A stretch of DNA of 64,000 nt from Candidatus Stackebrandtia faecavium (GTDB lineage Bacteria > Actinomycetota > Actinomycetes > Mycobacteriales > Micromonosporaceae), in contig DXIM01000010.1 of NCBI GenBank assembly GCA_019112895.1, positions 50,992 through 114,991 of the forward strand. The letters are read 5' to 3'. The translations under genes and the position numbers were made by a program. The first letter of the stretch is position 1. Each line of letters starts with the position of its first letter. Below the pieces are notes generated by a model. It was not told the DNA's origin, ran no database searches, and was given only the letters and a program-made list of their open reading frames with translations. Positions 5,755-27,957 of this stretch are shown here, piece by piece.

Positions 5755-6531
5755 GTGGAAGAAGTCATTCTTGAGATCATGCGTCCGCTGATGACGTCAA
5801 CATGGATCTTTGTCATCATCTTCGGCGTCGCCTTCCTGGATGCGTTCTTCCCCGTCGTTCCCGGAGAGACGTCGGTGATCATCGCCGGGGCTTCAGCCGC
5901 GGCCATCGGCTCGCCCAACATCGTGATGGTGATAGCCATCGCTGCTATCGGCGCGTTCGCTGGAGACCATGCTTCCTATGTCATCGGCCGGTTCGGGCTG
6001 CGGTCGGCCGGACGCGGGATCAAATCGAGACTCGGGCGCACCTCCCTGGCACGGCTGGCCGTACGCGTGCGACGACGCATCTTCCACAGCCGGCTCGTGC
6101 GATACATGACCCGTTCCAAACGCACCGAACAAACGAACATCTTCGAATGGGCGGACGCCTCGCTCAATAAACGCGGGGCGGCGATCCTCATCACCGCCCG
6201 ATACATCCCCGGCGGCCGGACTGCGGTGACTCTCACGTGCGGCACGGTCCGCTTCTCTCTGCGCCGCTTCGCCGCTTTCGACGCGGTCGCCACGCTGCTG
6301 TGGGGCATGTATTCGGGCTTGATCGGCTACGCCGCGGGGTGGTACTTCGAGGGCCATCCGCTCTTGGCCCTCGGGCTGGGCTTCGTCCTGGCCATCGTCT
6401 GCTCGTGCCTCATCGAGTTCGTGCGCGGCCGGTTCCTCAAGCGCGTCGAGCGTCGCAAAGAAGCCACCCGCATGATGGAGCCGGCGCTGGACACAGCGGG
6501 CAGCACCCGCAGCGAAGAAACCGCGGCGTGA
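5755..6531 (+). CDS. DedA family membrane protein
   Basis: LDAFFPVVPGET, GAFAGDHASYVIGR, ARYIPGGRTAVTLTCG; start approximate. Confidence 0.9.
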   Translation: MEEVILEIMRPLMTSTWIFVIIFGVAFLDAFFPVVPGETSVIIAGASAAAIGSPNIVMVIAIAAIGAFAGDHASYVIGRFGLRSAGRGIKSRLGRTSLARLAVRVRRRIFHSRLVRYMTRSKRTEQTNIFEWADASLNKRGAAILITARYIPGGRTAVTLTCGTVRFSLRRFAAFDAVATLLWGMYSGLIGYAAGWYFEGHPLLALGLGFVLAIVCSCLIEFVRGRFLKRVERRKEATRMMEPALDTAGSTRSEETAA

Positions 6532-14664: not shown

Positions 14665-15876
14665 TCAGCCCGCGCGCCCGGCGACAGCTTCGGGCTCCGC
14701 TTGCGCCACGACCGGCACCTTCGTCCTCAGGAATGCCGGGATCACCGCGACGGCCAGTACACCCGCCAGCACCGCGAAACCGATCGGGTAACCGGTCACG
14801 ACTGCCAGGTAGCCGAAACCGACCGCACCGATACCCATGCCGCCATCGTAACCAATATTCCACAATGCACTCACCGCTCCAACGCCCCCGGCGTCCGTAC
14901 GGTCCAGCATCATCGTCAACGTGAGGTTTTGTGTCATGCCGAAGCCCATGCCGAAGATGCACATGCCGCCGATCACCATCGCTGCGCTGCCCGTGGCGTA
15001 CATGCAGGCGGCCCCGATCGCGGCCGCCGCCACTGCGGGAGGCAGAAGCCGCGACGCCCCGAACCGGTCAGACAGCCGGCCCGCCAACCACCGAAACACC
15101 GACGTCAGCGTCGTCTGCGCCAGCAAAGCCACGACCACGACCGAGCCGGAATCGGTGATGCTCACCGCCAGCGGCAAGAAAGTCATGAACACACCCGTGG
15201 CCGTCGCTGCGGCCGTGAAGATCAACGCGGGCCGCAGCACCGCGGGCCTTGCGGCGGCGGCCGCGACACCGGACGTGCCGACGTACGGCTTGCGCGTGTT
15301 CGGGTAGGCGCCGACGGCGACCAACGCGCACAATGCACACAGGAAAGCCAGCACGAAAACCACCGTGAAGCCGACGTTCTCGCTGAGCCAGACCCCCAAG
15401 GGCAGCCCGAAGATCGACGGCACGCACACCGCGACGCCGTACAAGCCGAGGGTTTCGCCTCGCCGCCCTGGCGCCGCGAACTCGGCGGCCAGCGCGGTGG
15501 CACCGACGACGACGATCCCGAAACCGATCCCGCGCGCGAACGCCACCGCAATGATGGCGCCGAACTGGTCGAACGGCACCAGCACCAACGACGGGATAGC
15601 CAGCAGCAGATAGCCGGCGATCATGACGTTGCGGTATCCCCATCTCGCCACCAACTGCGGCATCACTAGCTCGATCGCGACGGTGGCGAGCATCATCACC
15701 CCCGTCACGAGACCGGCGTCGACGGAACTTCCGCTGGATTTGCTGGCGTACAGGGGCGCCACCGTCATCAGGAGGAAAAAGCTCGACAGCGACAGCAAGG
15801 AACCTGTCAACAACCACGCGAGTCGGGGCGTCACCAACCGCGGTTTCTGCGGCACCGAGGACACGTGGCCGGCCAC
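14665..15876 (-). CDS. MFS transporter
   Basis: About 12 hydrophobic segments; MFS motif A-like LAGRLSDRFGASR. Confidence 0.9.
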   Translation of the reverse strand: MAGHVSSVPQKPRLVTPRLAWLLTGSLLSLSSFFLLMTVAPLYASKSSGSSVDAGLVTGVMMLATVAIELVMPQLVARWGYRNVMIAGYLLLAIPSLVLVPFDQFGAIIAVAFARGIGFGIVVVGATALAAEFAAPGRRGETLGLYGVAVCVPSIFGLPLGVWLSENVGFTVVFVLAFLCALCALVAVGAYPNTRKPYVGTSGVAAAAARPAVLRPALIFTAAATATGVFMTFLPLAVSITDSGSVVVVALLAQTTLTSVFRWLAGRLSDRFGASRLLPPAVAAAAIGAACMYATGSAAMVIGGMCIFGMGFGMTQNLTLTMMLDRTDAGGVGAVSALWNIGYDGGMGIGAVGFGYLAVVTGYPIGFAVLAGVLAVAVIPAFLRTKVPVVAQAEPEAVAGRAG

Positions 15877-16047: not shown

Positions 16048-17493
16048 TCAGGCCGACCGTTGTGTGCGCGTCCATCCGTGCGGTAGGGCCACATTTCGCC
16101 GGTCGCGGTGACGGATCATCGCCTGTTTCGTTTTGCGTTCCCGCAGTCGCTGCAGTGCCGAATATTGCGCGCTGGCGGCTTCCTCCTCGACCGCCATGCG
16201 CCTGGCGAAGGACCGCACCGTGGCATAGAAGAGGTATCGCTTCGAGTTGTCGCATTTCAGGAGGCTCTCGTCGTGGAGCGTCGACAACAATGCAGATGTG
16301 TCGCGCGGCGACTGCCCAGTCAGTGCCGCGGCGGCCTCGATATCGATCGCCCGCCCCGGATAGATTGACAGCAATCGAAACAGTCGCTGGGCCGGCGCAG
16401 GCAGAACGCGGTACGAGGCGAGCAGGGCATGGTGGCTGGCTTCATGGATGGGCAGACCCCGTATGCGGGCGACATGGTCCGCCAGTGTCCAGTCCGGCTT
16501 GTCACGCAAGGCGTTACCGACGACGGTCAATTCGAGTGGCAATTGCTGACACAGGTCCACAAGGGTCCGTGTGCGTTGTGCGTCGCCGTCGATGCGATCG
16601 ACCGGATCGTAACTGCGCAGCAGCGAGACCGCATCGTCGCGGTCCAACACGTCCAGATCTATGTGCTCAGTCCCGGGCACGTCGATGGACCGGCGGCTGG
16701 TGATGATCACGATGTTGGCGCCGTAGCGCGGAATCAACGGCTCCACCTGCGCCGCCGATTCGGCATTGTCGAGGACGACGACGGCGCCTCCGGACCGCAA
16801 CATCTGACTGAATTCCTCGGCGAATCTCGCGCGCGTGAGGCTGTCGACCTGTTGCGGCTTCATCCCCAACCGTTTCAGGAAGCCGCGCAGCACCGCCACC
16901 GAATCGGCTGGCGGTTCGGCGGCGTGATAGCCGCGCAGATCGACGCTCAGCGCGGGCCCGTGCGGGTGCCCATCCTCCGCCAGGTCGGCGCAGATTCGGT
17001 GTGCCAGTTCGGTCTTTCCCACACCGGCCGGACCGCGCAGCGTGATCACCGTCGAACGGTCGGCCGCTTGACCGCCCCGGATATAACGTCTGGCCAGCTC
17101 CCGTTGCCGATCTCGCCCATGGAAACACCACGTCGGCGCGGGTATTTGTGTAGCGATCGGCACCGCCATGGATCGATGTATGCCGTCGACAATGAGCCGG
17201 CATTCCCGTTGGAGCCAACGCAACGCATCCTGGTCCAAGCCGAGCGCCGCGCCGATCTCACGCACGGTTTCCACATTAATTCGTTTACGACCACGCTGGA
17301 AATAGCCGTGGATCGTGGCGACGGACGGTGGCGGCTCCGGAACGCCCTTCTTCTGCCGCTCGTCCTTGATACGACGCCGGATCTCGCGAAAGGACGCATG
17401 CTTCGCATTACTGCGTGCGGTGGACAAGAATTCAGCTATGTCGTCAAGACTGCGGACCGCGATCGGGTCCCTACATCCGCACGCGTGAATCAT
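16048..17493 (-). CDS. HTH + NB-ARC (STAND) transcriptional regulator with no TPR tail
   Basis: N-terminal XRE-like helix region, Walker A GPAGVGKT, VLDNA Walker B, ITSRR, C..LPLEL, then ends after the winged-helix part. Confidence 0.82.
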   Translation of the reverse strand: MIHACGCRDPIAVRSLDDIAEFLSTARSNAKHASFREIRRRIKDERQKKGVPEPPPSVATIHGYFQRGRKRINVETVREIGAALGLDQDALRWLQRECRLIVDGIHRSMAVPIATQIPAPTWCFHGRDRQRELARRYIRGGQAADRSTVITLRGPAGVGKTELAHRICADLAEDGHPHGPALSVDLRGYHAAEPPADSVAVLRGFLKRLGMKPQQVDSLTRARFAEEFSQMLRSGGAVVVLDNAESAAQVEPLIPRYGANIVIITSRRSIDVPGTEHIDLDVLDRDDAVSLLRSYDPVDRIDGDAQRTRTLVDLCQQLPLELTVVGNALRDKPDWTLADHVARIRGLPIHEASHHALLASYRVLPAPAQRLFRLLSIYPGRAIDIEAAAALTGQSPRDTSALLSTLHDESLLKCDNSKRYLFYATVRSFARRMAVEEEAASAQYSALQRLRERKTKQAMIRHRDRRNVALPHGWTRTQRSA

Positions 17494-17523
17494 AGATTTG
17501 CACGCCCCAAATAACGCTACATA

Positions 17524-17535
17524 GTCATATATGAC
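17524..17535. promoter_or_regulatory. Perfect 12-bp palindrome upstream of the NB-ARC regulator
   Basis: gtcatatatgac in an AT-rich 90-bp intergenic gap. Confidence 0.35.
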
Positions 17536-17582
17536 CCTATGAATGATAGATCGCTAATGCAACACCTAGCGTCAAAGTGTCT

Positions 17583-18854
17583 CTAGCCGAGTTCCACACC
17601 ACAGAATCGGTACAACTCCTCCAGCAGTCGCCGGCCGTCCTCCTTCGAAGCGGGAAGCGGCCCCTCCTGCGCTAGACCCGCGTCAGGAAGGTCCGTCAAG
17701 ACTTCGGCGACCGTGCCGCCACCGGCCCGCAACCTGTCGACGATCACGTCGAGTTGGTCCGAGGTCAACGCGGTCTCCACGACGCGACCGTTCACCCCGC
17801 ACACCATCGTCCCGTTGCTGGTAGGCGTCCACGCGCAGACCTCGTCCTCGCCCATGCGCACGCGCGTGTCGTCCGGCAGCGCGCACGGTTCCAGCAGAGC
17901 CGGCACCGGCTCATAGCCGCCTGCCGTCACGCACGCCACGGATCGTTGCGCCGCCCGATCCGTCAACCGCGCACCGGACAACGGCTCAATCAAAGCCGAC
18001 ACGGCCCCCGACATGGCGTCCGGCACTGAGCTGGTCAACACGCCATCCTCGTCGGGCCCTGGCGATGTCATCGCGACATCGAGCGAAGGCAGATACGACT
18101 CCATGCTCTCGCTCACGAGCATCTCGAGGTCGTAGTCCTTATAGAACTTCGGCAGCTCATAGATCGCGCGGTGCCCATCAACCGGCACCCCGACGTTCAC
18201 GCTGGTGGCAGGCGGGCCGTCCCCACTCTCGCCGACGTGGAAATAGCTCGACGGCCAATACAGCATCTGGCCCGGCTCGACATCGACTGCAAACGAGCTA
18301 GGCAGATACTCCTGGTATTTAAGCACCGTCGACACATTCTCGGTCCAGGGACGCTGGGCCCAAAACCGCATCCGCTTGCGCTCGCGCAACGCGAACATGA
18401 ACGTCGCGAACCGATCCTTATGGACACCCACCGGGCTCGACTCATAGTTGCCGTGGAACAACGTGGTGATCGCACTGGTGGCAGGGACACCGATCTGCTG
18501 CCACAATCCCCGATAAAACCTGCGCTGACGCTTCCACATCGCCCAATCGAAGATATGGAAACCGTTGACCATCAGCGCATAGGGCTGCCCGTCCAGCTGC
18601 TTGGCGACCCGGTCGATGTAGCCGTCGAAGTCACCGTCATCGTGCGTCGGCAGGTACGCGTCCGGGATGTCCTGCTGGAACCGGCCGATCGTCAGGTTCA
18701 CTGCCCGTCGGCTCGCGTTCGTAGCTGCGGTGAAAACCTCGTCGGGAACGAAAGGCGGGTCGGCCAGGTTCGTGTACAGCACCGGAGCCCGATTCCAGTA
18801 CTTGCGGGCGAAAGTCTCCCAATCGAACGTGGTCTCCACATTCACATCAGACAT
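17583..18854 (-). CDS. JmjC/cupin Fe(II)-2-oxoglutarate oxygenase (RiPP tailoring candidate)
   Basis: FARKYWNRAP, VGVHKD (HxD), PGQMLYWPSSYFH (distal His); ATG at 18854 overlaps the upstream stop. Confidence 0.85.
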   Translation of the reverse strand: MSDVNVETTFDWETFARKYWNRAPVLYTNLADPPFVPDEVFTAATNASRRAVNLTIGRFQQDIPDAYLPTHDDGDFDGYIDRVAKQLDGQPYALMVNGFHIFDWAMWKRQRRFYRGLWQQIGVPATSAITTLFHGNYESSPVGVHKDRFATFMFALRERKRMRFWAQRPWTENVSTVLKYQEYLPSSFAVDVEPGQMLYWPSSYFHVGESGDGPPATSVNVGVPVDGHRAIYELPKFYKDYDLEMLVSESMESYLPSLDVAMTSPGPDEDGVLTSSVPDAMSGAVSALIEPLSGARLTDRAAQRSVACVTAGGYEPVPALLEPCALPDDTRVRMGEDEVCAWTPTSNGTMVCGVNGRVVETALTSDQLDVIVDRLRAGGGTVAEVLTDLPDAGLAQEGPLPASKEDGRRLLEELYRFCGVELG

Positions 18855-20007
18855 CACTGCCTCCATCCTGCGCGACCATCTCGACAGCGCGTATGACGTA
18901 CAACCGTTGCAGCAGTGCCTCCAGGCCTTGCGAACCTCCACACAGTTCCTCCACCGTGACGTCGGTGCATTGCTTGAATTCCTGCAACCACTCGGCGGCC
19001 GCCTCGCCCTGCACGCTGAACGCGTGCCCGTTGGCGGCCCACATTTCGCTACCGTCCGCTTGAGGATTACGCACCACGAGACTGCTCAATCGCACTCTCG
19101 TGTCCGGTTCGAACTCGATCGGCTGCCGTGGATCAGGGGCCGGATCCAGGCATGCGGCGCTCGTCTGCTGCGTCCACAGGATCGCCGAAATGCGCGCCTC
19201 CGATTCCGGGTCCAAGTTGTCGCGCATGGTTTCGGCCGTCGTCTTAAACGGACCCGCCGCAGGAATCCGGCCGTGATACGAATCCAACTGCAAGTACGGG
19301 ACTTTATCGACATCCAAAGCGTTGTCCACCGCCAGCGCGCCGCGATTGAAGACCGATGCCGACAGTTGCCTGGAATCCTCGATGACCTGTACCTGCACGG
19401 CCATGTAGTCGTCGTGGAACGATTCCGTGCGCGCGAACCCTGCCGGGTGGTAGACCACGTCGCCCGTTCCGACCGTCATGTCGACGGTCTTGCCTCCGCC
19501 ACTGATCGTGATGTCGGCTCCACCCGAAAGCACCAACGTGATCCCCGCCTGCGCCACCTCATCGGCCGGTAGATGGACCTCGAAATTGGATCCCAACCGG
19601 ATGAACGTCTTGACCGGGACGACCGGGTAACCCACGCGTTTCCACAGTGATCGAACGAGGTCCCGCATCTGGGACCACAGACGGTAGTTGCCCATGAAAC
19701 CTTCGGCGATCCGCACCAAGAACCCGGCGGCGTCGAGCTCGGCACGCATTTTCTTCGCATACGTGCGCGGGTCGTCTCCGGAGTCCGGCAGCAAGTCATG
19801 CAACGCCCGCGTCCGCCCCATCGGGGTCCATACCGCCACGTCGGGCAATGCCCGCATCCGCGTGCCGGCGCGAAAAGGCGCGCACACGTCGATGACCGTC
19901 GAGAACACGTCGCCGGTCGGCAACGGTGAACCGCCGAACGCGTTGGGCACATGCACCGGTTCCCGGCCCCAATGCTTCGCCAGCGTGTGTATCCACGAAT
20001 CGTTCAT
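18847..20007 (-). CDS. JmjC/cupin-like protein lacking the metal-binding triad
   Basis: Same architecture as neighbour (KHWGREPVH, GDVVYHPAG, C-terminal helical domain) but no HxD and no distal His. Confidence 0.7.
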   Translation of the reverse strand: MNDSWIHTLAKHWGREPVHVPNAFGGSPLPTGDVFSTVIDVCAPFRAGTRMRALPDVAVWTPMGRTRALHDLLPDSGDDPRTYAKKMRAELDAAGFLVRIAEGFMGNYRLWSQMRDLVRSLWKRVGYPVVPVKTFIRLGSNFEVHLPADEVAQAGITLVLSGGADITISGGGKTVDMTVGTGDVVYHPAGFARTESFHDDYMAVQVQVIEDSRQLSASVFNRGALAVDNALDVDKVPYLQLDSYHGRIPAAGPFKTTAETMRDNLDPESEARISAILWTQQTSAACLDPAPDPRQPIEFEPDTRVRLSSLVVRNPQADGSEMWAANGHAFSVQGEAAAEWLQEFKQCTDVTVEELCGGSQGLEALLQRLYVIRAVEMVAQDGGSDV

Positions 20008-22391
20008 GTGTTGACCGCCTTCGACAATGGGAAACGGTTGTGCAGGATCTGTGCGTATTCCGTCAGGGAGACCATGCCAATCTCCTCCCGACGTTTCTCG
20101 ACGTCATCGGCGCTTCCGTCGAGCTGACAGGGCACCAACGCGTCACCGTCGCGTTCGAACTTCGTGCCGTACCGTTGTGGACGGTCGTCCTGTAGCCGCA
20201 TCGCGTCCGTCAGATACGCCACCATCTTCAACAATTGGCGATCCCGTCGCGCCTCATCGCGCAGCAACGCCAGGCAGTGCCGCTGAAACGGCGTGGTCGC
20301 CCCGTGTCGGTGCTGCAGCAAGGCCACCGCCGATTCTGCGGCGGCCCGACCGACCTTGTCCGCGCTCGGCCACCCGTGCACCGCCACAACATCGGTGAGG
20401 TAATCCGTCGCGCTGCGTGTCAACCGCTCGAGCTTCGCCGCGGCCTCGTCGTCGCTGAATCCGCCCTGCGCCCAGGGCTCGCGGATCGCGCCGTCCACAT
20501 CGCCGATGCGTTCGAGCTTCTCGGCGACCTCCGCGTAGTCGCCGACTTCGTGATGGGGCCGATCCTGCGGCTCGATCGGTTCCAGGTTCACGGTGTCGTC
20601 GTTCCAGCAGTAATTGAGGTCCTGGCCGAACTCGCTGAATCCGAACCGTACCTGGCCGCACGCGATATCCCACAGGTCGATGGAGACATCCTCGTCATGG
20701 TCGGCCCATGCGGCGATCGGCACGTTCGCGCGAACGTATTCGACCGCATCCCGGACGAAAACACCGAAGCCGGTCATGTCCCACGCGCGACCGTGCAACG
20801 CATCCTCGCTCGGTATGACGCAGGGGCGCGGGACGTCGTCACCGGCAACCCGAAACCGCGTGGTCGTGTCGCCGCGGGTCGCCTGTTTAAGCAGGGACCC
20901 TCCTTGCGCACTCACGAAGAAGTAGGGCACATCGCCGTTGTGCAACTGGTTCTGTTCGTCCTTGGTGAATTCCAGTTCCGGACTCTTATCCGGTGTGAAC
21001 AGTCGACGCTGGAGCTCGTCGTCGTAGACGGCCGTCGGTCGTGGCACCACGCGAATTCGATTGTCCCGGCGATGGGCCGCCAAATTCCGCGCGATCCGGT
21101 CTCGCTGCCCGTTCAGGAGCACCCAGGCCTCGAAGGCGCCGCGCAGAAACTGCGGCAGATAAGCACTGTAGCCAACGTTTCCGTTGCTGTCGGTGACGAC
21201 GGTACGCGTCTCACCGCGAGCCCACGGCTTCCGGATTCGGCATATCCGCGGGGCGTCGTCACCATCGAAATCGAGGTACGCCCACGGTGCATCGACCCCG
21301 CATTCCCGTTGCCGGTCTTCGAAACCGACATGGTGAAGCGCGTCGTCGGGGCCGGGAATGAGACCCGTCCCCCACAGTCGTTGAATATCCGAAAAGTACA
21401 CCTCGATATCGACCGGTACATAACGGAGCCGACCGTCAGGACCGTTGGGGCCAACGAGCACATTGCCTTCGATCAGGTCGCCGATTCCGAACGCGAAACA
21501 CACGGCCGCGAGCGCGCCCGCATCGCGCCACATCTCGGCCGCCACGTCCGGCTCAACCACGGGGCCGGACAGACGCGGAGTCAGTGGCGCCATCTGCGTC
21601 GGCGCCGACACCCACTCCTGCCACAGGTAATCGTGGCTGTCGTAACCGGCGCCGCGCCAACAATGCAGTTGCGGCAGTCGGAATCGCCCATCGGCCAGAT
21701 CGTTGATCAGCCCAAAAGTGGAGGGTTCGTCCCCGAGACTGTGGCGAGCCGAGAAGAGGGCGTCGCCGCGCGCCGGACTCGGTTTGTACGCCACGACCGC
21801 TCCCCCCTGGAGCGTCACCCGCAGGACCCGCGATCCCCCATTGTGGGTCTCGGCTCCACATGCGGATACGCCCGTCACCGGCCCCTCAAAGGCCGGTTCG
21901 TCTATCCAGGAGCAAGCCATGTCGCTGTCGAGCCGCTCAAGGAAAATCTCGAGCGCGCGTGTCAACTGGCGGCGGCGGTGGGCGGCTCGGCTCGCGGCCC
22001 GCGCCGCATGCGTGAACGCGCAGACCGTGAAGATCTCCGAAAGTAGTGGCCCGAACAGGTCCGTGTTAGTGATGGCCAGTACACCGGGCTTGACCCGCTC
22101 CGCATGTTTCTCGACCATGGTCTTGCACCATGAGTCGAGGGCGACGATGGTCTTGACGACGGGCCGAAAGGTTGCGTGGCCGAGGACGGCGCCCAAGGCG
22201 TCCACCCGGGCCGGGTTGAGGCCCGGTTCTTCGCAGACGATGAGATCGTCCTGCGCAGGCCGAGCGATCGGCGGAAAAATACCGGCCACGCTCGCGGTAC
22301 TCGCAAGGTGGTCGAGGAGAACGCGCACCGGTTCGGGCAAGGCGGCAACTTCCTCGGTGCCGGCTTTGGGTAGCAGTCGTGTCATTTCCAT
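20004..22391 (-). CDS. LanM-type dehydratase domain (DUF4135) fused to C-terminal DUF6624; no LanC cyclase domain
   Basis: ETHNGGSRV, YKP, DLIEGN, PVDIE, RVVPRPTAVY (LanM kinase/eliminase motifs); C-terminal HGWP..KVG..A..A..LLQH..FQRHCL..AYLTD..PQRYGT (DUF6624); ggagg RBS before ATG at 22391. Confidence 0.85.
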   Translation of the reverse strand: MEMTRLLPKAGTEEVAALPEPVRVLLDHLASTASVAGIFPPIARPAQDDLIVCEEPGLNPARVDALGAVLGHATFRPVVKTIVALDSWCKTMVEKHAERVKPGVLAITNTDLFGPLLSEIFTVCAFTHAARAASRAAHRRRQLTRALEIFLERLDSDMACSWIDEPAFEGPVTGVSACGAETHNGGSRVLRVTLQGGAVVAYKPSPARGDALFSARHSLGDEPSTFGLINDLADGRFRLPQLHCWRGAGYDSHDYLWQEWVSAPTQMAPLTPRLSGPVVEPDVAAEMWRDAGALAAVCFAFGIGDLIEGNVLVGPNGPDGRLRYVPVDIEVYFSDIQRLWGTGLIPGPDDALHHVGFEDRQRECGVDAPWAYLDFDGDDAPRICRIRKPWARGETRTVVTDSNGNVGYSAYLPQFLRGAFEAWVLLNGQRDRIARNLAAHRRDNRIRVVPRPTAVYDDELQRRLFTPDKSPELEFTKDEQNQLHNGDVPYFFVSAQGGSLLKQATRGDTTTRFRVAGDDVPRPCVIPSEDALHGRAWDMTGFGVFVRDAVEYVRANVPIAAWADHDEDVSIDLWDIACGQVRFGFSEFGQDLNYCWNDDTVNLEPIEPQDRPHHEVGDYAEVAEKLERIGDVDGAIREPWAQGGFSDDEAAAKLERLTRSATDYLTDVVAVHGWPSADKVGRAAAESAVALLQHRHGATTPFQRHCLALLRDEARRDRQLLKMVAYLTDAMRLQDDRPQRYGTKFERDGDALVPCQLDGSADDVEKRREEIGMVSLTEYAQILHNRFPLSKAVNT

Positions 22392-22439
22392 GGCCACCTC
22401 CGGCGTAGCGCGTAAAACTGTGGAATTTGTAGCGGTGTA

Positions 22440-22470
22440 CCGCGGCGCACACCGTCGGTGTGCGCCGCGG
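22440..22470. terminator. Strong hairpin between the precursor genes and the modifying-enzyme gene
   Basis: Perfect 14-bp stem ccgcggcgcacacc-gtc-ggtgtgcgccgcgg, 8 nt after precursor stop. Confidence 0.8.
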
Positions 22471-22478
22471 CCCAGCCG

Positions 22479-22607
22479 TTAAAGCGGGGTGCAGTAAATG
22501 TTCATGCAAGTGACGGGGTCCTTGGAAGGCTGCTTCGGCAGCTCTTTCGTCAGCTCGCCAAGAACGACATCCACCGAACGGGTCTTCGATGCTTTTTCTT
22601 TGGACAT
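22479..22607 (-). CDS. RiPP precursor peptide A1 (42 aa)
   Basis: MSKEKASKTRSVDVVLGELTKELPKQPSKDPVTCMNIYCTPL; RBS gaggaa; ORF track starts it too far upstream. Confidence 0.9.
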   Translation of the reverse strand: MSKEKASKTRSVDVVLGELTKELPKQPSKDPVTCMNIYCTPL

Positions 22608-22825
22608 GGATTTCCTCTTCTCAAGGTCAGGCGAAGCGAACACTTCGCCATAGTTCTGGGCCCATCGATTTTCCAATGGCCCAAGGCCGGAACGGATCAA
22701 CAGATCGTTACACCGCCGGCCAGCTCAGGGGGATCTCATGTCATGGCCCGCTGGGCACACCCACTGTCATTCGGCTACTCACGCGATGCGTGTCGGCCAT
22801 TCACCTGTGCCGACTCATGTGTGGC

Positions 22826-22856
22826 GGGCCGCGCATGCTCTCTGGCTGCGCGGCCC
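22826..22856. terminator. Hairpin downstream of precursor A2
   Basis: gggccgcgca-11 nt-tgcgcggccc, 10-bp stem. Confidence 0.55.
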
Positions 22857-22879
22857 ATTAGTCATGCGATTGGGAATCC

Positions 22880-23014
22880 CTACCAGGGTTCACAATAGAC
22901 TCTTGTGCAGGTGACAGGGTCCTTGTTCTGTTCCCGCTGGCGAGGTAGTTCTTTCGACAGTTCGCCGAGGACTACATCAACCGGACGGGACTTGCCTTCA
23001 TTGATTTTGGACAT
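22880..23014 (-). CDS. RiPP precursor peptide A2 (44 aa)
   Basis: Manual translation: MSKINEGKSRPVDVVLGELSKELPRQREQNKDPVTCTRVYCEPW; RBS gaggat; below the ORF-track cutoff. Confidence 0.9.
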   Translation of the reverse strand: MSKINEGKSRPVDVVLGELSKELPRQREQNKDPVTCTRVYCEPW

Positions 23015-23084
23015 AGCATCCTCGAATCAATCAGTATCGGCAATTACAGCGGCCGAAGCCGAATGGATTCTCTGAGCGCGTTAA

Positions 23085-23210
23085 TTACACGCAGTACATG
23101 CTCGCACAGGTCGGCCAGTCCTTCGATTCACGTTTGCTCGGCAGCTCCTTGGACAGGTCACCAAGGACTACATCAACCGGGCGGGCCTTTTCTGTCTGAA
23201 CTTTGGACAT
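23085..23210 (-). CDS. RiPP precursor peptide A3 (41 aa)
   Basis: Manual translation: MSKVQTEKARPVDVVLGDLSKELPSKRESKDWPTCASMYCV; RBS ggagga; below the ORF-track cutoff. Confidence 0.9.
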   Translation of the reverse strand: MSKVQTEKARPVDVVLGDLSKELPSKRESKDWPTCASMYCV

Positions 23211-23354
23211 AAAATCCTCCATATCGTTCAAAACATCCTGATGCGTTCGCATCTGGCCCACACGTTGCCCAATGATCGAGGTCAGCGCATCGTTTCCGAA
23301 CGAACCCGAACACCGCGCAATGAGCAGCGGTTGCGGGAATGCAGGTTAAGCCGG

Positions 23355-24197
23355 TTAAAACTCCTCGTAAACGGCCGGGTCTTGCTCCTCGGTGCGTCCG
23401 TCTTCGCGACCGAGGCCACTGATCGTGGCCATCTGTGCGGACGTCAGCTCAAAATCGAAGACGTCGATATTCTCCTCCTGCCGCGCGGGGTGCGCCGATT
23501 TCGGGATCGGAATCGAACCCAACTGGATGTGCCAACGCACAATCACCTGCGCCACCGACTTGCCGTGCTGTTGAGCGATGTCCACGACCTCGGGTTCTTT
23601 CAGCACCGCGCTGGCACGGCCCAGCGGACTCCACGACTGGGTGCGGATGCCGCGTACGTTGTCGGCGCCGCGTTGCCTCCGCTGCGGAAAGTACGGGTGC
23701 AGCTCGATCTGGTTGACGCTCGGTGCGACGCCGGTGTCGTCGATGAGCCGATCCAGGTGTTCGGGCAAGAAATTCGAGACCCCGATCGACCGCACGAGTC
23801 CCCGCTCCTTCGCGTCGATCAACGCTTCCCACGCCTGCGAGTACAAGTCCTTGCTCGGGTTCGGCCAATGGATCAGGTAAAGGTCATAGTAGTCGAGTCC
23901 GGTACGGTACAACGATTCTTCGATCGCGGTGCGGGCGGCCCGATAACGCTGGTGACGTCCCGGAAGCTTGGAACAGACCCGCATCTGGTCACGCGGCACC
24001 CCACATGTGCGCACGGCTTTGCCGACGGCGCCCTCGTTTTCATAGTTGAACGCCGAATCCAGTAGCCGGTAGCCGTAATCAACCGCGGAGTGAATGGCCT
24101 TGACACCTGCCTCGCCGCGCAGGTTGTACGTTCCGAAACCCATGACCGGAACGTGGATGCCGTCGTTTAGCTCGTATACAGGCATTTTGCGTGTCAT
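23355..24197 (-). CDS. Aldo/keto reductase (2,5-DKG reductase type)
   Basis: GFGTY, GYRLLDSAFNYENE, YDLYLIHWP, RSIGVSNF, NQIELHPY, IPKS; real start MTRKMP at 24197. Confidence 0.93.
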   Translation of the reverse strand: MTRKMPVYELNDGIHVPVMGFGTYNLRGEAGVKAIHSAVDYGYRLLDSAFNYENEGAVGKAVRTCGVPRDQMRVCSKLPGRHQRYRAARTAIEESLYRTGLDYYDLYLIHWPNPSKDLYSQAWEALIDAKERGLVRSIGVSNFLPEHLDRLIDDTGVAPSVNQIELHPYFPQRRQRGADNVRGIRTQSWSPLGRASAVLKEPEVVDIAQQHGKSVAQVIVRWHIQLGSIPIPKSAHPARQEENIDVFDFELTSAQMATISGLGREDGRTEEQDPAVYEEF

Positions 24198-24258
24198 GGC
24201 CCCCATGGTAGGAGCTACGAACCCAATATTTTCTGCCTTAGACGCATCCACGTTCGCG

Positions 24259-25518
24259 CTATGCGGGCTGTCGGTGCCGCTGGATTGCCAGCTCACCGCT
24301 GACGTGGAAGTCGCGCGATGTCGCCACGATCGCGTCCTCAACTTCACGGGATGTACGGCCACGGAACCGGAAGCGTCCGCCGACATGTTCGTAATACGCA
24401 TCGGCCGCCGGCAGGATTTCGCCCGGCCGAAGCAACGCCTCTGCGTACGGTCCCGGTACACGCCCCACCATCGACGTGGCATGAGTGATGCGGCACGGCC
24501 GCTGGGTGGGTGCCGGGGCCAACAACCAGCCGGCCACGTCCGTTCCGGGAGCGGGGGCGACGGCATCAATGGAGCGCGGCCACGGCAGGGCGCGCTGGCC
24601 GGCCAGCAAACGAAACGCCGACTCCATGAGGTCGTAACCGTGCACCTCGCGCCACAGGTACGGGATCTCGGCGCCACCGACACGAGCGCCCACTTCCAGG
24701 AAGGCGCACGACCCCGTGACACGGTCGACGAACAGTTCAAGATGGAACACGACCGGTTTACGGCTCAGCGCCCGCATCACGCCGGTCGAAAACGCCGTGA
24801 TGCTGCGCATCAGGTCGGGATCGTCTTCTTCGACCGAACCGAGCGTATCGCCGGTCCGAAAACCCAAGCAGTTGTTGACATAACGCGAGGCCCGCAATGG
24901 TCCCATCGTCGTACCGTCGAAGTAGCCGTCCACATGGTAGATCTGGCGCCCGTCGAATGCCTGAACGAGGTGGGGTTCTCCTTCCGCGAATTCGAGACCG
25001 GCACATTCGCTGGGACCATCCACTTTGATGACGCCGGCGCTGGAGCTGCCCGCGCACGGTTTCACGACGACCGGCCAGCCGTGATCTCTACCGAACTCGA
25101 CGACGTCGTGTGGGTGACGCACAGGCGCGTGGGCCGGAACCGCCAGACCCGCCCTCGATACGAGACCCGCCATGACGAGCTTGTCGCGGAACGGAATGAC
25201 ATCGTCAATGTCAGGACCGGGGCATCCCCATTGCTGACGCAATTGTGCACCGACAAGAAGGTCGTCTTCCTTCAACGCGATGATCGCTTCCGGGCGGCCC
25301 TGATTCTCGGCCAGGCGCTTCACGGCATCAGCCACCGAAGGTAGATCGTCGGTAGCGTCCACAATCGCGACTTCGGCTGCGCTGGCCGGCAACGATGGCG
25401 CGCCGACTTCGGTGGTCACATAGCTGACGGCGTAACGCGAATGGTCCACGTAGCGTTCGTAGTGCGCATAGTCGGCCAACCAACGGTGAACGATCACCAT
25501 GTGTGGGCGTGCAGCCAT
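24259..25518 (-). CDS. ATP-grasp ligase (amino-acid ligase-like)
   Basis: FRDKLVM, VVVKP..GSSSAGV, YHVDG, VFHLELF, FLEVGARVGGA; RBS ggagga before ATG at 25518. Confidence 0.88.
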   Translation of the reverse strand: MAARPHMVIVHRWLADYAHYERYVDHSRYAVSYVTTEVGAPSLPASAAEVAIVDATDDLPSVADAVKRLAENQGRPEAIIALKEDDLLVGAQLRQQWGCPGPDIDDVIPFRDKLVMAGLVSRAGLAVPAHAPVRHPHDVVEFGRDHGWPVVVKPCAGSSSAGVIKVDGPSECAGLEFAEGEPHLVQAFDGRQIYHVDGYFDGTTMGPLRASRYVNNCLGFRTGDTLGSVEEDDPDLMRSITAFSTGVMRALSRKPVVFHLELFVDRVTGSCAFLEVGARVGGAEIPYLWREVHGYDLMESAFRLLAGQRALPWPRSIDAVAPAPGTDVAGWLLAPAPTQRPCRITHATSMVGRVPGPYAEALLRPGEILPAADAYYEHVGGRFRFRGRTSREVEDAIVATSRDFHVSGELAIQRHRQPA

Positions 25519-26774
25519 AACAGCTCCTCCCCCACCTCGTAGAAGTCCGGACCATCCAAATAGCGCACGGTGCCGAAGTCCCGCATCACGACTTCCTCCA
25601 CCGAGTCGGCCAGGTTCACCACGAGCGGACACGACATGTCGTCGACGGTGCGTCGAAGCTGGCCGCCCTCCGGAACCAGCATGCGGATGTCGTGCAGGCT
25701 CTCCAATTCGCGCAGACGAGACATCTTCGGGTAGGACCGCAGCGGCGCCTCAATGTGCGACACGGTCATCGCCGACACGAAATGCTTCGTCAGTCGGTAG
25801 TCGTTCTTCCAGCGCGCGGCGAAACGATCCGGATCCGTGTACGCGTCGACGATCCATTCCAGTTGGGCTTCGCCGATGCACTGCTGCGAGTAGTAAGGAA
25901 TGTCGAGCCCTGCCATACGCGCCGCGGCCTCGACCAGGCACGGTCCGGTCGGGGTCATCTTGATCTCCAGATGCGAGGCGCCGTGCGACACGCCAAGCGC
26001 GTCGAGGACGTTGGCCGCATACGGCAGGAGACGGTCCTGCACCTCACCGCACTTGGGCAGGAGTCGGATTCCCGTGGTGAGGTCGACGATCCCGTTGGCC
26101 GAGATCTTCTCGTATTTCCAGATGTCCGTAACATGATGCTGGCCGTCGCGACTCACCGAATCCACGATGTATTCGCCGCCGGCAAGGTATTCCTGAGCCA
26201 CGACCGCCTCGTTGCGTGCCGAGAACACGCTGTCGGACGCCAGGATCGAATGATATGCAGCCACCGATTCCTCTGGTGTGTCACAGAAGGCGACGCCGTC
26301 GCCGGCCGCACTGCGGATCGGCTTGACCACGACCCGACCGCCAATGTCGGCGTGCCACTGCGCCAACTGCTGAGGCGACGACACCAACAACTGGGCGGTG
26401 GCGCGCAAGCCTGCGGCCCGCACGGTCTCCATCTGCACGTATTTATCGCGCCGGGCGACGCTGTAGCCGGTGCCGTTGGTCAACAGCCCCATAGCCTCGC
26501 TGAGTTGGTCGGTCAGCTCGACCCCGCTTTCGCCTCCGGCAATGACCGCCTCGGGAGCGTACGGCTCCAACTGCGCCATAGTCGCGTTGATATCGCCGTC
26601 ATGCACAATGTTGACCGCGTACGGCGACAGATCGAAATCGGATCGGTACACCAACGGGGTTTCCGGTGTACTTTGGACCCTGATGACGTCGTACCCGGCT
26701 TTATGGAAATGCGGTGCCAGACGCCGCGTCGGCGAGTAGGCGTCGACCACGACGACATACTTTTTCGTTCTCAT
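25494..26774 (-). CDS. ATP-grasp ligase (NikS/L-amino-acid ligase-like)
   Basis: MRTKKYVVVVDAYSP, RRDKYVQ, VVVKPIRSAAGDGV, QEYLAGGEYIVD, HLEIKMT, VEAAAR. Confidence 0.88.
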   Translation of the reverse strand: MRTKKYVVVVDAYSPTRRLAPHFHKAGYDVIRVQSTPETPLVYRSDFDLSPYAVNIVHDGDINATMAQLEPYAPEAVIAGGESGVELTDQLSEAMGLLTNGTGYSVARRDKYVQMETVRAAGLRATAQLLVSSPQQLAQWHADIGGRVVVKPIRSAAGDGVAFCDTPEESVAAYHSILASDSVFSARNEAVVAQEYLAGGEYIVDSVSRDGQHHVTDIWKYEKISANGIVDLTTGIRLLPKCGEVQDRLLPYAANVLDALGVSHGASHLEIKMTPTGPCLVEAAARMAGLDIPYYSQQCIGEAQLEWIVDAYTDPDRFAARWKNDYRLTKHFVSAMTVSHIEAPLRSYPKMSRLRELESLHDIRMLVPEGGQLRRTVDDMSCPLVVNLADSVEEVVMRDFGTVRYLDGPDFYEVGEELLWLHAHTW

Positions 26775-26827
26775 AACGGACCCTTCACCTTCAACGCGAT
26801 TGCCATCCGCCCAAACATGACCAATCG

Positions 26828-26893
26828 CGCTACAGATTCGCTGCAGATCGACCGCACGTCGGTGTCCAGCGCTTTTACAGCGGATCTGTAGCG
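26828..26893. promoter_or_regulatory. Putative SARP-type binding repeats in a divergent promoter
   Basis: 18-bp inverted repeat (16/18 match) with 11-bp periodicity on both strands: cgct-acagatt-cgct-gcagatc-gacc-gcacgtc (+) and cgct-acagatc-cgct-gtaaaag-cgct-ggacacc (-). Confidence 0.55.
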
Positions 26894-26955
26894 GGCGTTG
26901 GAAAGCTCGAGTTGCTCCCCTTTCGGCAGGGGCCACGCAACTATCGAAACGGTGA

Positions 26956-27957
26956 ATGATGTCCAACAATGAAAGCACGCTACGGCGCATCATCTGGCTC
27001 TTCCCAGACCGGGAATCGACCCGCACGCAGGCAAAATGGAGCGGGGCGTTTTGGGAGACCTATGCGCAGATCGCCAACGATATGGGGCTGTCCTTCAAGC
27101 GCGTAGCCCCCGAAGCGGTGGTGGTCGATGCCTTGAACCCACAGGATCCGAAGTTCTATATCGACGGCGAACGCGTCACGCCGCACGACACGGTCTTCAT
27201 CTCGACCCCGTACACATTGCCGTACCAGACGGTGGATGCGTTCAATCAGTTCACTTTGTACGCTGTGCTGGAGGAAGCCGGATTCTATCTTCCACACCCG
27301 ACGGACATGGCGGCTGTCGGCAACGACAAGCTGGCCACGTTGCTGCGTTTCCGGGACTGCCCGGTACCGCCGGTACCGACGGTCCGCATCGGCACCGGCC
27401 GTGACCTGCTGTACGACGAGTACGAAGTCGCGATCGAGGACCTTCCCTACCCTGCTTTCACCAAGCCCGCCGGCTGGTGCGCGTCACGCGGCATCAACCT
27501 TGCGCGCGACGCCCACGACGTGCGGGGATTGCTCAGCCTGGCACAGGGTGGGGACACGACCATGGTGTTGCAACCGTTCTTGGGCGACAACACCGCCGAT
27601 TACCGCGTCTTCATGATCGACGGTAAGCCACACACCGTCATGGTGCGCGCGTCCGGCGACGGCGCCATCTATCCACAATTCACCACCGGCGCCACCATGT
27701 GGTTCTGTCCGCTCCCGGAGGAACTGTCCGAGGCGATGTCGTGGATCGCCAAGAAGCTGCCGGTCCCGTTCGCCTGCGTCGACTTCCTTCACGACGGCGA
27801 GAAGTTCTGGTTCTCCGAGATCGAAATGGACGGCGGGATTCTGTGCCCCGATCCGTCCGACCCTCAAGCCGTGGCCACTCAGCATTCCATCATTCGGGAT
27901 CGCTTCGAGGCCTATCGCACCCGTCACCAGGCGTTCCTTCAGGAGGTTAAAGCATGA
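26956..27957 (+). CDS. ATP-grasp fold protein (RimK/GshB-like)
   Basis: NDKLATL, FTKPAGWCASRGI, VLQPFLG, DYRVFMIDG, DFLHDG...EIE. Confidence 0.8.
   Translation: MMSNNESTLRRIIWLFPDRESTRTQAKWSGAFWETYAQIANDMGLSFKRVAPEAVVVDALNPQDPKFYIDGERVTPHDTVFISTPYTLPYQTVDAFNQFTLYAVLEEAGFYLPHPTDMAAVGNDKLATLLRFRDCPVPPVPTVRIGTGRDLLYDEYEVAIEDLPYPAFTKPAGWCASRGINLARDAHDVRGLLSLAQGGDTTMVLQPFLGDNTADYRVFMIDGKPHTVMVRASGDGAIYPQFTTGATMWFCPLPEELSEAMSWIAKKLPVPFACVDFLHDGEKFWFSEIEMDGGILCPDPSDPQAVATQHSIIRDRFEAYRTRHQAFLQEVKA

What the first reader, a model, noticed from the sequence alone, without database searches (positions are those of the whole stretch)
22479..23210. Three tandem precursor genes, two missed by the ORF track, with conserved leader and diversified core
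Read directly from the minus strand. A3 (23085-23210) is MSKVQTEKARPVDVVLGDLSKELPSKRESKD-WPTCASMYCV. A2 (22880-23014) is MSKINEGKSRPVDVVLGELSKELPRQREQNKD-PVTCTRVYCEPW. A1 (22479-22607) is MSKEKASKTRSVDVVLGELTKELPKQPSKD-PVTCMNIYCTPL. Each has a Shine-Dalgarno sequence. Invariant residues are MSK, VDVVLG(E/D)L(S/T)KELP, KD, T-C, and Y-C four residues after the first Cys; the three residues between C and Y vary freely. A constant leader with fixed scaffold residues and a variable loop is the usual signature of a RiPP precursor family.
Basis: seen in the sequence. Interest (0 to 1): 0.9.

Follow-up and report, generated by a model that had tools for sequence, protein, structure and literature searches.

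The report
Precursor genes of an uncharacterised RiPP family
The three tiny tandem genes are real and encode precursors of a modified-peptide natural product; their enzyme set (a lanthipeptide-type dehydratase without a cyclase, plus a ribosomal-oxygenase-like enzyme pair) recurs in over 80 bacterial species and has no described product.

Summary
A1, A2 and A3 are intact minus-strand ORFs with Shine-Dalgarno sites. Their synonymous sites are nearly saturated while the protein is conserved (dN/dS 0.11-0.27).

They head an operon with overlapping start and stop codons:
- a LanM-type kinase/eliminase domain (DUF4135) fused to DUF6624 where a LanC cyclase would normally sit;
- a catalytically dead JmjC paralog (cupA);
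- an intact ribosomal-oxygenase-type JmjC 2OG/Fe enzyme (cupB).

This three-enzyme core occurs in all 85 loci examined, from Streptomyces, Nonomuraea, Kitasatospora, Glycomycetaceae, Luteimonas/Lysobacter and Myxococcota. Every locus carries 1-3 small ORFs with a leader of the type xDLVIGxLExxxP and a core [S/T]-C-x3-5-Y(H)-C-x1-5. A reversed-sequence control gave no hits.

A LanC gene is present only where the core has four Cys (29 of 29 loci). The two-Cys TC...YC unit is therefore probably matured without LanC.

No Pfam or NCBIfam model covers the peptides, no source gives them a curated functional name, and no searchable paper covers the peptides or the cluster.

The most likely chemistry is inferred, not shown: Ser/Thr dehydration, oxidation at the invariant Tyr/His by cupB, and thioether closure of a small nested bicycle.

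The parts
23085..23210 (-). Precursor gene A3 (41 aa): MSKVQTEKARPVDVVLGDLSKELPSKRESKDWPTCASMYCV
   Evidence: GGAGGA sits 4 nt upstream of the ATG. Precursor HMM E 8e-12. Present as a called, unnamed protein in public assemblies.
22880..23014 (-). Precursor gene A2 (44 aa): MSKINEGKSRPVDVVLGELSKELPRQREQNKDPVTCTRVYCEPW
   Evidence: GAGGA sits 4 nt upstream of the ATG. HMM E 1.1e-10.
22826..22856 (-). GC-rich hairpin downstream of A2
   Evidence: The 83-nt stretch folds at -35.3 kcal/mol, z -3.2; 2 of 200 shuffles fold as well.
22479..22607 (-). Precursor gene A1 (42 aa): MSKEKASKTRSVDVVLGELTKELPKQPSKDPVTCMNIYCTPL
   Evidence: GAGGA sits 5 nt upstream of the ATG. HMM E 3.2e-12.
22439..22471 (-). 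Perfect 15-bp GC-rich hairpin between the A1 stop and the first enzyme gene. It is a likely partial terminator or RNA-stabilising element that sets the precursor:enzyme ratio (inferred).
   Evidence: -39.1 kcal/mol, z -6.4; 0 of 200 shuffles fold as well. It has no U-tract, so the terminator scan does not call it.
20004..22391 (-). DUF4135 (LanM-type kinase/phosphate-eliminase) fused to DUF6624. There is no LanC domain. The probable start is the ATG at 22391; the ORF tool lists a GTG at 22397.
   Evidence: Pfam: DUF4135 2.8e-16 (residues 136-493) and DUF6624 1.4e-10 (residues 628-790). The profile hits CylM and LicM2. The CylM catalytic residues are conserved except His349. The DUF6624 model has pLDDT 90.9 and no PDB neighbour.
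18847..20007 (-). cupA: a full-length paralog of cupB that lacks the metal triad and the 2OG-binding Lys. It is the presumed non-catalytic partner subunit. Its ATG overlaps the upstream stop (ATGA).
   Evidence: hhalign against cupB: probability 100%, E 2.4e-49 over 382 columns. Triad positions are variable across 32 orthologs. The overlap was read.
17583..18854 (-). cupB: a ribosomal-oxygenase (YcfD/NO66/MINA53)-type JmjC 2OG/Fe(II) oxygenase, 423 aa. Its start overlaps the cupA stop (ATGTCTGA).
   Evidence: H145, D147, H206 and K160 are invariant in 35 of 35 orthologs. The profile hits YcfD at 1e-6. The AF2 model has pLDDT 89.5, and Foldseek finds NO66, MINA53 and YcfD at E 1e-15 to 1e-12 over 446-489 columns. 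A 99%-identical 423-aa public gene call supports the start. The overlap was read.
16048..17493 (-). NB-ARC/TPR (AfsR-like) protein. It is a possible local regulator and is not part of the conserved core.
   Evidence: Pfam NB-ARC 1.4e-9; NCBIfam AfsR/HaaT-like hits far below their cut-offs. An AT-rich 90-nt gap separates it from cupB. It is not conserved beside the core in other loci.
14665..15876 (-). MFS transporter. It is a possible exporter and is not part of the conserved core.
   Evidence: Pfam MFS_1 3e-35. No counterpart was found in related loci.

Best explanation
A1, A2 and A3 are translated genes for precursor peptides (leader plus core) of a conserved, so far uncharacterised RiPP pathway.

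The operon is A3-A2-A1, a hairpin, DUF4135-DUF6624, cupA and cupB.

Proposed mechanism, with shown and inferred steps marked:
1. The leader helix (VDVVLGxLxKELP here; FDLVIGDLEQEIP in most relatives) docks the peptide on the enzymes. [quoted passage not shown] This is inferred.
2. The DUF4135 domain phosphorylates the invariant Ser/Thr that precedes the first Cys and eliminates phosphate, giving Dha/Dhb. The residue set needed for both half-reactions is shown to be conserved; the activity is inferred.
3. cupB acts as a heterodimer with its dead paralog cupA, as ribosomal oxygenases act as dimers. It uses Fe(II)/2OG/O2 to oxidise the other invariant non-Cys position, the Tyr (His in Kofleriaceae) that precedes the second Cys. 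The most likely reaction is beta-hydroxylation, the chemistry of all characterised ribosomal oxygenases. The target and the chemistry are inferred.
4. The two Cys thiols close thioether links without LanC. I predict the distal Cys adds onto Dhb, and the proximal Cys links to the oxidised Tyr. Together they give a small nested bicycle around the variable 3-5 residue loop. This is inferred.

The three cores (TCMNIYCTPL, TCTRVYCEPW, TCASMYCV) would give three congeners from one enzyme set.

My odds: real precursors of this conserved pathway, about 0.85. Ser/Thr dehydration, about 0.7. Tyr/His as the cupB target, about 0.5. The nested bicyclic product, about 0.3. The confidence value given is for the first claim, combined with LanC-independent maturation by this enzyme trio.
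For: The ORFs, their Shine-Dalgarno sites and their paralog conservation are confirmed. dN/dS is 0.11-0.27 with near-saturated synonymous sites.

The genes are translationally coupled through ATGA and ATGTCTGA overlaps. A hairpin with z -6.4 follows A1.

Comparative genomics:
- 104 species encode relatives of the DUF4135 protein, and 80 loci were fetched.
- DUF4135, cupA and cupB are adjacent in all of them, apart from three loci whose sequence stops before cupB.
- The precursor HMM hits 111 ORFs at E<1e-3 in 85 of 85 loci; the reversed control gives 0.
- Among 67 unique cores, S/T-C and Y(H)-C are invariant and the loop is variable.

The counterparts of CylM D252, H254, K274, D347, N352, D364, R506 and T512 are conserved in 11 of 11 family members, with conservative D-to-E and, once, T-to-S changes.

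cupB has an invariant triad and a ribosomal-oxygenase fold. cupA is a dead full-length paralog.

LanC is present in 29 of 80 loci, and exactly those loci have 4-Cys, Ser/Thr-rich cores (29 of 29). All LanC-less loci have cores with 2-3 Cys. There is no LanC in the 64-kb window.

JmjC hydroxylases are established RiPP enzymes: BipG (PMC12707348) and CzlI (PMC11575548). JmjC_2 proteins carrying RRE-like domains in RiPP-like contexts have been noted (PMC12710340).
Against: There is no transcript, ribosome-profiling or mass-spectrometry evidence. The tool that finds sequencing runs was closed.

The DxH histidine of LanM (CylM His349) is replaced by a hydrophobic residue (or Gly in one member) across the family. 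CylM-H349A retains only a little dehydration activity (PMC4550811). The domain could therefore be slow, or only a kinase.

No protease or transporter is conserved with the core, so leader removal and export are unexplained.

DUF6624 has no structural relative, and four of the 85 loci (three Myxococcus-type, one Streptomyces otsuchiensis) show no DUF6624. Its role is unknown.

No computation here supports one cupB target over another.
Confidence: 0.68

Rival explanations
1. This is an ordinary class II-like lanthipeptide with a split or missing cyclase. DUF4135 dehydrates Ser/Thr. One Cys forms a single (Me)Lan ring, either spontaneously or with a LanC encoded elsewhere in the genome. The JmjC pair is only a tailoring hydroxylase, and the second Cys stays free or forms a disulfide.
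For: The DUF4135 catalytic set is conserved. 29 of 80 relatives do carry a stand-alone LanC next to the core. NCBI annotates the Nonomuraea homolog as 'type 2 lantipeptide synthetase LanM'. JmjC hydroxylases are known tailoring enzymes in RiPP pathways.
Against: LanC tracks only the extra two Cys (29 of 29), and it is absent from 51 of 80 loci and from this window. cupA and cupB are as universal as DUF4135 itself, being in every locus long enough to show them, which is unusual for a tailoring step. Tyr/His-Cys is as invariant as Ser/Thr-Cys. The LanM model TIGR03897 scores 32 bits against a cut-off of 304.
Confidence: 0.2
2. The DUF4135 domain is a kinase only, because its DxH histidine is lost. 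The mature peptide would then carry a phospho-Ser/Thr (and possibly a hydroxylated Tyr) rather than a dehydroamino acid or a thioether.
For: The CylM His349 position is I/F/L/M/G across the family. Phosphorylated lanthipeptides exist, for example salivaricin 10 (PMC10235938, listed).
Against: The residues tied specifically to phosphate elimination (the counterparts of CylM D252, H254, R506 and T512) are conserved. In the LanC-containing subfamily the same enzyme must supply Dha/Dhb for LanC.
Confidence: 0.08
3. The small ORFs are not substrates. They would be regulatory upstream peptides, attenuator leaders, or unmodified secreted peptides that merely sit upstream of an enzyme operon acting on something else.
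For: Strong hairpins follow A1 and A2. There is no direct evidence of modification.
Against: Selection acts on the amino-acid sequence, including the C-terminal Cys/Tyr scaffold, rather than on RNA structure. Copy number varies from 1 to 3 with diversified loops. The motif is kept across three phyla with different gene orders; for example, the precursors precede cupA in Luteimonas and lie between cupB and DUF4135 in Myxococcota. The Cys and Ser/Thr content of the core co-varies with the presence of LanC.
Confidence: 0.04

Closest known systems
Class II lanthipeptide systems (LanA/LanM, e.g. cytolysin CylL/CylM)
   Same: The precursors have leader-core design, with multiple precursor genes placed ahead of the synthetase. 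The DUF4135 lipid-kinase-like dehydration domain has its phosphorylation and elimination residues conserved. The cores contain Ser/Thr and Cys.
   Different: There is no fused LanC cyclase; DUF6624 takes its place, and no LanC lies in this window. The DxH histidine is lost. The LanM family model scores far below its cut-off. Only one conserved Ser/Thr faces two Cys. An obligatory JmjC pair is present. There is no double-Gly leader and no LanT-type transporter.
Dehydrazoles (carnazolamide; CcaM 'LanMbC', PMC10676384)
   Same: A divergent DUF4135 domain is fused to a non-canonical C-terminal domain. That family sets the precedent that such enzymes dehydrate without making lanthionine.
   Different: CcaM carries a class III-type zinc-free cyclase domain and depends on YcaO-made azoles. 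Here the fusion partner is DUF6624, Pfam scans of the neighbouring large ORFs (about 10.8-36 kb of the window) found no YcaO, and the partner enzymes are JmjC proteins.
Ribosomal oxygenases YcfD/RoxA, NO66 and MINA53
   Same: cupB shares the three-domain architecture: a JmjC barrel, a helical dimerisation domain and a C-terminal winged-helix-like domain. It also shares the HxD...H triad. These enzymes beta-hydroxylate Arg or His in a protein loop and act as dimers.
   Different: cupB is encoded with a catalytically dead paralog inside a peptide-precursor operon. Identity in the structural alignments is only 13-18%. The substrate is presumably the precursor peptide, not a ribosomal protein.
JmjC hydroxylases of RiPP pathways: BipG (biphenomycin, Orn hydroxylase) and CzlI (curacozole, Phe hydroxylase)
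   Same: They are Fe/2OG JmjC enzymes that act on ribosomal precursor peptides.
   Different: Those are single tailoring enzymes in pathways defined by other chemistry (MNIO/rSAM or YcaO). Here the JmjC pair is part of the invariant core.
Catalytic subunit plus non-catalytic partner pairs in RiPP oxidation (MbnB/MbnC, TglH/TglI; from my own knowledge, not tested here)
   Same: The logic is the same: an iron enzyme is encoded next to an inactive partner that is thought to present the peptide. The modified positions are Cys-containing.
   Different: Those enzymes are DUF692/MNIO TIM-barrel proteins with unrelated partners. Here both subunits are paralogous JmjC proteins.

Membership tests
RiPP precursor peptide (generic) | Short ORF with a conserved N-terminal leader and a C-terminal core whose scaffold residues are fixed and whose other positions vary | tested here: met
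   (alignments); 67 unique cores with invariant S/T-C and Y(H)-C and a variable loop and tail.
RiPP precursor peptide (generic) | Conserved genomic association with modifying enzymes across taxa | tested here: met
   85 of 85 loci carry a precursor next to DUF4135, cupA and cupB. The reversed-sequence control gave 0 hits.
RiPP precursor peptide (generic) | The peptide is expressed and post-translationally modified | not testable with these tools
No mass-spectrometry data are available.
Class II lanthipeptide synthetase (LanM) | N-terminal DUF4135 dehydration domain with its catalytic residues | tested here: met
   Pfam DUF4135 2.8e-16. Counterparts of CylM K274, D347, N352, D364, D252, H254, R506 and T512 are conserved; His349 is not.
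Class II lanthipeptide synthetase (LanM) | C-terminal LanC-like zinc cyclase domain | tested here: not met
   The C-terminus is DUF6624. Its confident model is a small helical domain with no PDB neighbour. tblastn with a LanC found nothing in the window.
Class II lanthipeptide synthetase (LanM) | Score above the curated cut-off of TIGR03897 (lanti_2_LanM) | tested here: not met
   32.4 bits against a cut-off of 304.
Lanthipeptide (product class) | (Methyl)lanthionine thioether in the mature peptide | not testable with these tools
   The core has one conserved Ser/Thr and two Cys, so a ring is possible. No product data exist.
Ribosomal oxygenase (ROX) subfamily of JmjC 2OG oxygenases (for cupB) | HxD/E...H iron triad and a 2OG-binding basic residue | tested here: met
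   H145, D147, H206 and K160 are invariant in 35 of 35 orthologs.
Ribosomal oxygenase (ROX) subfamily of JmjC 2OG oxygenases (for cupB) | Three-domain architecture: JmjC barrel, helical dimerisation domain and C-terminal winged-helix-like domain | tested here: met
   The AF2 model has pLDDT 89.5. Foldseek aligns it full-length to NO66, MINA53 and YcfD at E 1e-15 to 1e-12, with TM 0.4-0.55.
Ribosomal oxygenase (ROX) subfamily of JmjC 2OG oxygenases (for cupB) | The substrate is a ribosomal protein | not testable with these tools
   The operon context argues for the precursor peptide as substrate; this is an inference.
Dehydrazole pathway (LanMbC + YcaO) | A YcaO cyclodehydratase encoded with the DUF4135 protein | tested here: not met
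   Pfam scans of 19 large ORFs around the cluster (about 10.8-36 kb of the window; small ORFs not scanned) found no YcaO. No conserved extra gene family appears across the loci except LanC.
Thiopeptide precursor ('thiazolylpeptide-type bacteriocin', the UniRef label on the Nonomuraea homolog) | A match to a curated precursor model | tested here: not met
   No NCBIfam hit at E up to 10 for 10 family members, none at E up to 0.01 for the window's three, and no meaningful Pfam hit.

The most novel reading that the evidence does not exclude
This would be the founding example of a new RiPP class. A heterodimer of an active and a dead ribosomal-oxygenase-type JmjC protein oxidises the beta-carbon of the invariant Tyr/His, or directly forges a Cys-Tyr C-S bond. 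That makes the Y-C dipeptide chemically analogous to the S/T-C dipeptide. A cyclase-less LanM-type kinase/eliminase (with DUF6624) then processes the peptide so that two adjacent, nested thioether bridges (Dhb to the distal Cys, and the proximal Cys to Tyr) form without any LanC. DUF6624, a widespread domain of unknown function also enriched in graspetide clusters, would then be a new RiPP enzyme or peptide-recognition domain.
Probability: 0.27. Interest if true: 0.85.

Novelty: new variant of a known kind. Interest (0 to 1): 0.72.

Why it matters
Several things would follow if this is confirmed.
- It would define a peptide natural-product family present in more than 100 species. These include well-studied Streptomyces griseus-group strains, Nonomuraea, Kitasatospora, Lysobacter/Luteimonas and myxobacteria. 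Current annotation labels its genes only 'hypothetical', 'JmjC domain-containing' or 'LanM'.
- It would give a first function to a ribosomal-oxygenase-type active/dead heterodimer outside ribosome modification.
- It would give a first handle on DUF6624, which has about 10,500 clusters at 50% identity.
- It would be another case of thioether or related macrocyclisation without LanC.
- The short cores (8-13 residues) with naturally diversified loops on a fixed scaffold are attractive for peptide engineering.
- The precursor motif and HMM recipe found here allow direct genome mining.

Tried and rejected
- **Upstream genes as part of the system.** I tested whether the aldo-keto reductase and the two ATP-grasp genes upstream (23355-27026) belong to the system. 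tblastn found no counterpart in any of the 84 related loci, so I treat them as a neighbouring, separate cluster (Pfam).
- **Other conserved neighbours.** All-against-all clustering of flanking ORFs across 80 loci found only LanC (29 loci) beyond the core. A 5'-nucleotidase and a methyltransferase are restricted to the S. griseus group. No conserved protease or transporter emerged. A first, larger clustering run timed out.
- **DUF6624 as a cryptic cyclase or RRE.** A confident AF2 model has no PDB neighbour (best E about 1, TM at most 0.39).
- **PqqD/RRE signal in cupA and cupB.** A sequence search of their C-terminal about 100 residues found none. RRE-likeness rests only on the secondary-structure order and on PMC12710340.
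- **Literature.** No paper prints these peptide sequences. None links DUF4135 with DUF6624, JmjC or cupin. Actinopeptins (PMC13509491) are a different family, made of DUF6229 peptides with a full LanM.
- **Promoter and terminator scan.** The sigma-70/terminator consensus scan of 22300-23500 was uninformative.
Full report
**Observation.** Each ATG is preceded by GAGGA or GGAGGA at 4-5 nt. The protein alignment has 22 invariant columns: MSK, K8, R10, VDVVLG, L19, KELP, KD, TC and YC.

The DNA alignment shows that many leader codons differ only at synonymous positions. Nei-Gojobori counts give pS 0.61-0.72 and pN 0.24-0.27, so dN/dS is 0.11-0.27. The copies are therefore old duplicates held by selection on the protein, not on the RNA.

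A perfect 15-bp GC hairpin (-39.1 kcal/mol, z -6.4) lies between the A1 stop and the next gene. A weaker one (z -3.2) follows A2.

**The operon.**
- The ORF at 20004-22397 is downstream on the same strand. It has Pfam DUF4135 (residues 136-493) and DUF6624 (residues 628-790) and no LanC. It scores 32 bits on the LanM model, whose cut-off is 304.
- Its stop overlaps the start of a 386-aa protein, cupA (ATGA).
- The cupA stop overlaps the start of a 423-aa protein, cupB, at 18854 (ATGTCTGA). A 99%-identical public gene call of 423 aa agrees with that start.
- An AT-rich 90-nt gap then precedes an NB-ARC/TPR gene, an MFS transporter and an MpaB-type oxygenase.

**Enzymes.** A profile of the DUF4135 family hits CylM and LicM2 at the catalytic motifs. 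I mapped them with the CylM paper (PMC4550811). The counterparts of Lys274, Asp347, Asn352 and Asp364 (phosphorylation) and of Asp252 (Glu here), His254, Arg506 and Thr512 (phosphate elimination) are conserved in all 11 aligned members (Thr512 is Ser in one). His349 of the DxH motif is replaced by I/F/L/M/G.

cupB has an invariant H145-x-D147...H206 triad and K160 in 35 of 35 orthologs. Its profile hits YcfD. Its AF2 model (pLDDT 89.5) aligns full-length to the ribosomal oxygenases NO66, MINA53 and YcfD at E 1e-15 to 1e-12. [quoted passage not shown] A recent survey noted RRE-like domains of that order fused to JmjC_2 proteins, with bacterial homologs in RiPP-like contexts (PMC12710340).

cupA is a full-length paralog of cupB (hhalign E 2.4e-49). 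Its triad and Lys positions are unconserved.

The DUF6624 domain gives a confident helical model (pLDDT 90.9) with no neighbour in the PDB. The domain family is large, with 10,527 clusters at 50% identity; many are stand-alone or tandem. A 2026 paper flags it as enriched in several graspetide cluster groups and possibly a new biosynthetic enzyme (PMC13097080).

**Comparative genomics.** The word-based protein search found only six relatives of the 797-aa protein. Among them, the Nonomuraea gerenzanensis and Myxococcus sp. Y35 loci had a small ORF plus two ~400-430-aa genes alongside.

Same-genus and same-family genomes also carry the system. One of them matches Candidatus Stackebrandtia excrementipullorum and one Actinorhabdospora filicis. 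This places the window in or near Stackebrandtia (Glycomycetaceae).

A profile scan of one genome per species found 104 relatives, and 80 loci were fetched:

| Taxon | Loci |
|---|---|
| Streptomyces | 40 |
| Kitasatospora | 10 |
| Nonomuraea | 6 |
| Luteimonas | 6 |
| Lysobacter | 1 |
| Myxococcota | 8 |
| Other actinomycete genera | 9 |

tblastn shows DUF4135, cupA and cupB adjacent in all of them, apart from three loci whose sequence ends before cupB. Gene order differs between phyla.

Motif scans and manual checks found precursors in every locus. An HMM trained on them hits 111 ORF tails at E<1e-3 among 25,345. These fall in 85 of 85 loci: 63 loci with one, 18 with two and 4 with three. 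There were no hits among reversed tails, and only A1-A3 in the window.

The 67 unique cores read [T 51 / S 16]-C-x3 (43), x4 (18) or x5 (6)-[Y 65 / H 2]-C-x1-5. The family-wide invariants are C, Y and C, plus a near-invariant Pro that ends the leader.

A stand-alone LanC gene is present in 29 of 80 loci. Exactly those loci have Ser/Thr-rich four-Cys cores such as SPTNSGSGTACGTCAGVYCC (29 of 29). LanC-less loci have two Cys (74 peptides) or three Cys (7 peptides); one further decayed copy has none.

DUF6624 is fused in most loci. It is a separate gene in Archangium and Cystobacter, and was not detected in three Myxococcus-type loci or in S. otsuchiensis. No other gene family is conserved beside the core.

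**Interpretation.** The data establish that A1-A3 belong to a conserved family of leader-core peptides that is genetically tied to three proteins. This is the accepted genomic definition of a RiPP precursor.

The chemistry is inferred:
- The conserved elimination residues argue that DUF4135 dehydrates the invariant Ser/Thr. So does the fact that the same enzyme must feed LanC in the four-Cys subfamily.
- LanC tracks only the extra Cys pair, so the TC...YC unit is probably matured without it.
- cupB is as universal as DUF4135, so it is a core enzyme rather than a tailoring one.
- All characterised ribosomal oxygenases hydroxylate the beta-carbon of His or Arg. The only invariant non-Cys, non-Ser/Thr position is Tyr (His in Kofleriaceae). 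That makes it the best candidate target.
- The motif is symmetric: a beta-hydroxy residue followed by Cys, a loop, then an aromatic residue followed by Cys. This suggests two adjacent cross-strand links, Thr(0) to Cys(n) and Cys(1) to Tyr(n-1). This is a hypothesis only.

**Alternatives.** These are given in the Rival explanations section with what would refute each: a plain lanthipeptide variant, a kinase-only enzyme, and non-substrate peptides.

**Novelty.** The peptides hit no Pfam or NCBIfam model. In the 5.8-billion-protein collection there are 59 clusters. Nearly all are 'hypothetical protein'; a few carry an automatic UniRef label 'thiazolylpeptide-type bacteriocin', and two carry evidently spurious JGI names. 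The cupB orthologs (266 clusters) are named only 'JmjC domain-containing', 'cupin' or, automatically, 'L16 3-hydroxylase'.

Full-text searches found no paper that prints the peptides or links DUF4135 with DUF6624 or JmjC. The nearest described systems are class II lanthipeptides, the dehydrazoles (PMC10676384) and JmjC tailoring hydroxylases.

I therefore rate this as a new variant of a known kind: a RiPP with a LanM-type dehydratase. There is a real chance that the product defines a new class.

**Limits.** I have no expression or product evidence. I therefore could not search the rest of this genome for a LanC or further precursors, and I could not lay any reads on the locus.

Noticed in passing
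L068 (Actinorhabdospora filicis) 5567-5839, minus strand: About 4 kb upstream of that genome's TC...YC precursor lies a longer Cys-rich small ORF with a similar leader...KLIDRMLNRLVPASKAAAGTCGVTSTWYQCRGTSEYKCTYDSCKVTYCTPTGKHC. It may be a multi-core relative of the family (precursor HMM E 0.09).
   Followed up: no
L005 (same-genus genome G003) 831-1013: A third precursor-like copy keeps the leader (MLGDLESKVD...ASVTC) but has a divergent tail without YC (E 8e-4). It is probably a decayed paralog.
   Followed up: no
Related loci L011, L013-L090 (29 of 80): A stand-alone LanC gene follows cupB only in the Nonomuraea and Streptomyces griseus-group loci. Their precursors have four Cys and a Ser/Thr-rich extension (...SPTNSGSGTACGTCAGVYCC). 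The correlation is 29 of 29 against 0 of 82 peptides elsewhere.
   Followed up: yes
L072 6590-7105; L082 6596-7132; L077, L083, L088, L081: DUF6624 is a separate gene upstream of cupA in Archangium and Cystobacter. It was not detected in three Myxococcus-type loci or in Streptomyces otsuchiensis. It behaves as a module that can be fused, split off or lost.
   Followed up: partly
window 20007-20570 (DUF6624 domain): DUF6624 is a very large family: 10,527 clusters at 50% identity at E up to 1e-3. Many members are stand-alone 180-250-aa proteins or tandem repeats. A confident model has no solved structural relative.
   Followed up: partly
window 23355-36053: A separate biosynthetic cluster lies directly upstream. 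It holds an aldo-keto reductase, an ATP-grasp protein, acyl-adenylate ligases, an A-PCP didomain, a flavin amine oxidase, an SDR and an MFS transporter. The three of its genes tested by tblastn (the reductase, the ATP-grasp ORF and the overlapping ORF 24259-25632) have no counterpart next to the RiPP core in any related locus.
   Followed up: partly
window 17494-17582: A conspicuously AT-rich 90-nt intergenic stretch, in a GC-rich genome, separates cupB from the NB-ARC/TPR gene. It is probably a separate promoter region.
   Followed up: no
G007:C1:3588105-3590321 and G007:C1:2601809-2603992: A complete 6.8-Mb genome of the same genus carries two separate copies of the DUF4135-DUF6624 gene (E 9e-150 and 1.5e-118). 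Only the first locus was fetched.
   Followed up: no
Family-wide cores with a 3-residue loop: The middle loop residue is Arg in 25 of 37 unique cores (TC-[IAV]-R-[VI]-YC). This is notable because YcfD-type oxygenases hydroxylate Arg. Arg is not invariant, however; only A2 has it in this window.
   Followed up: no
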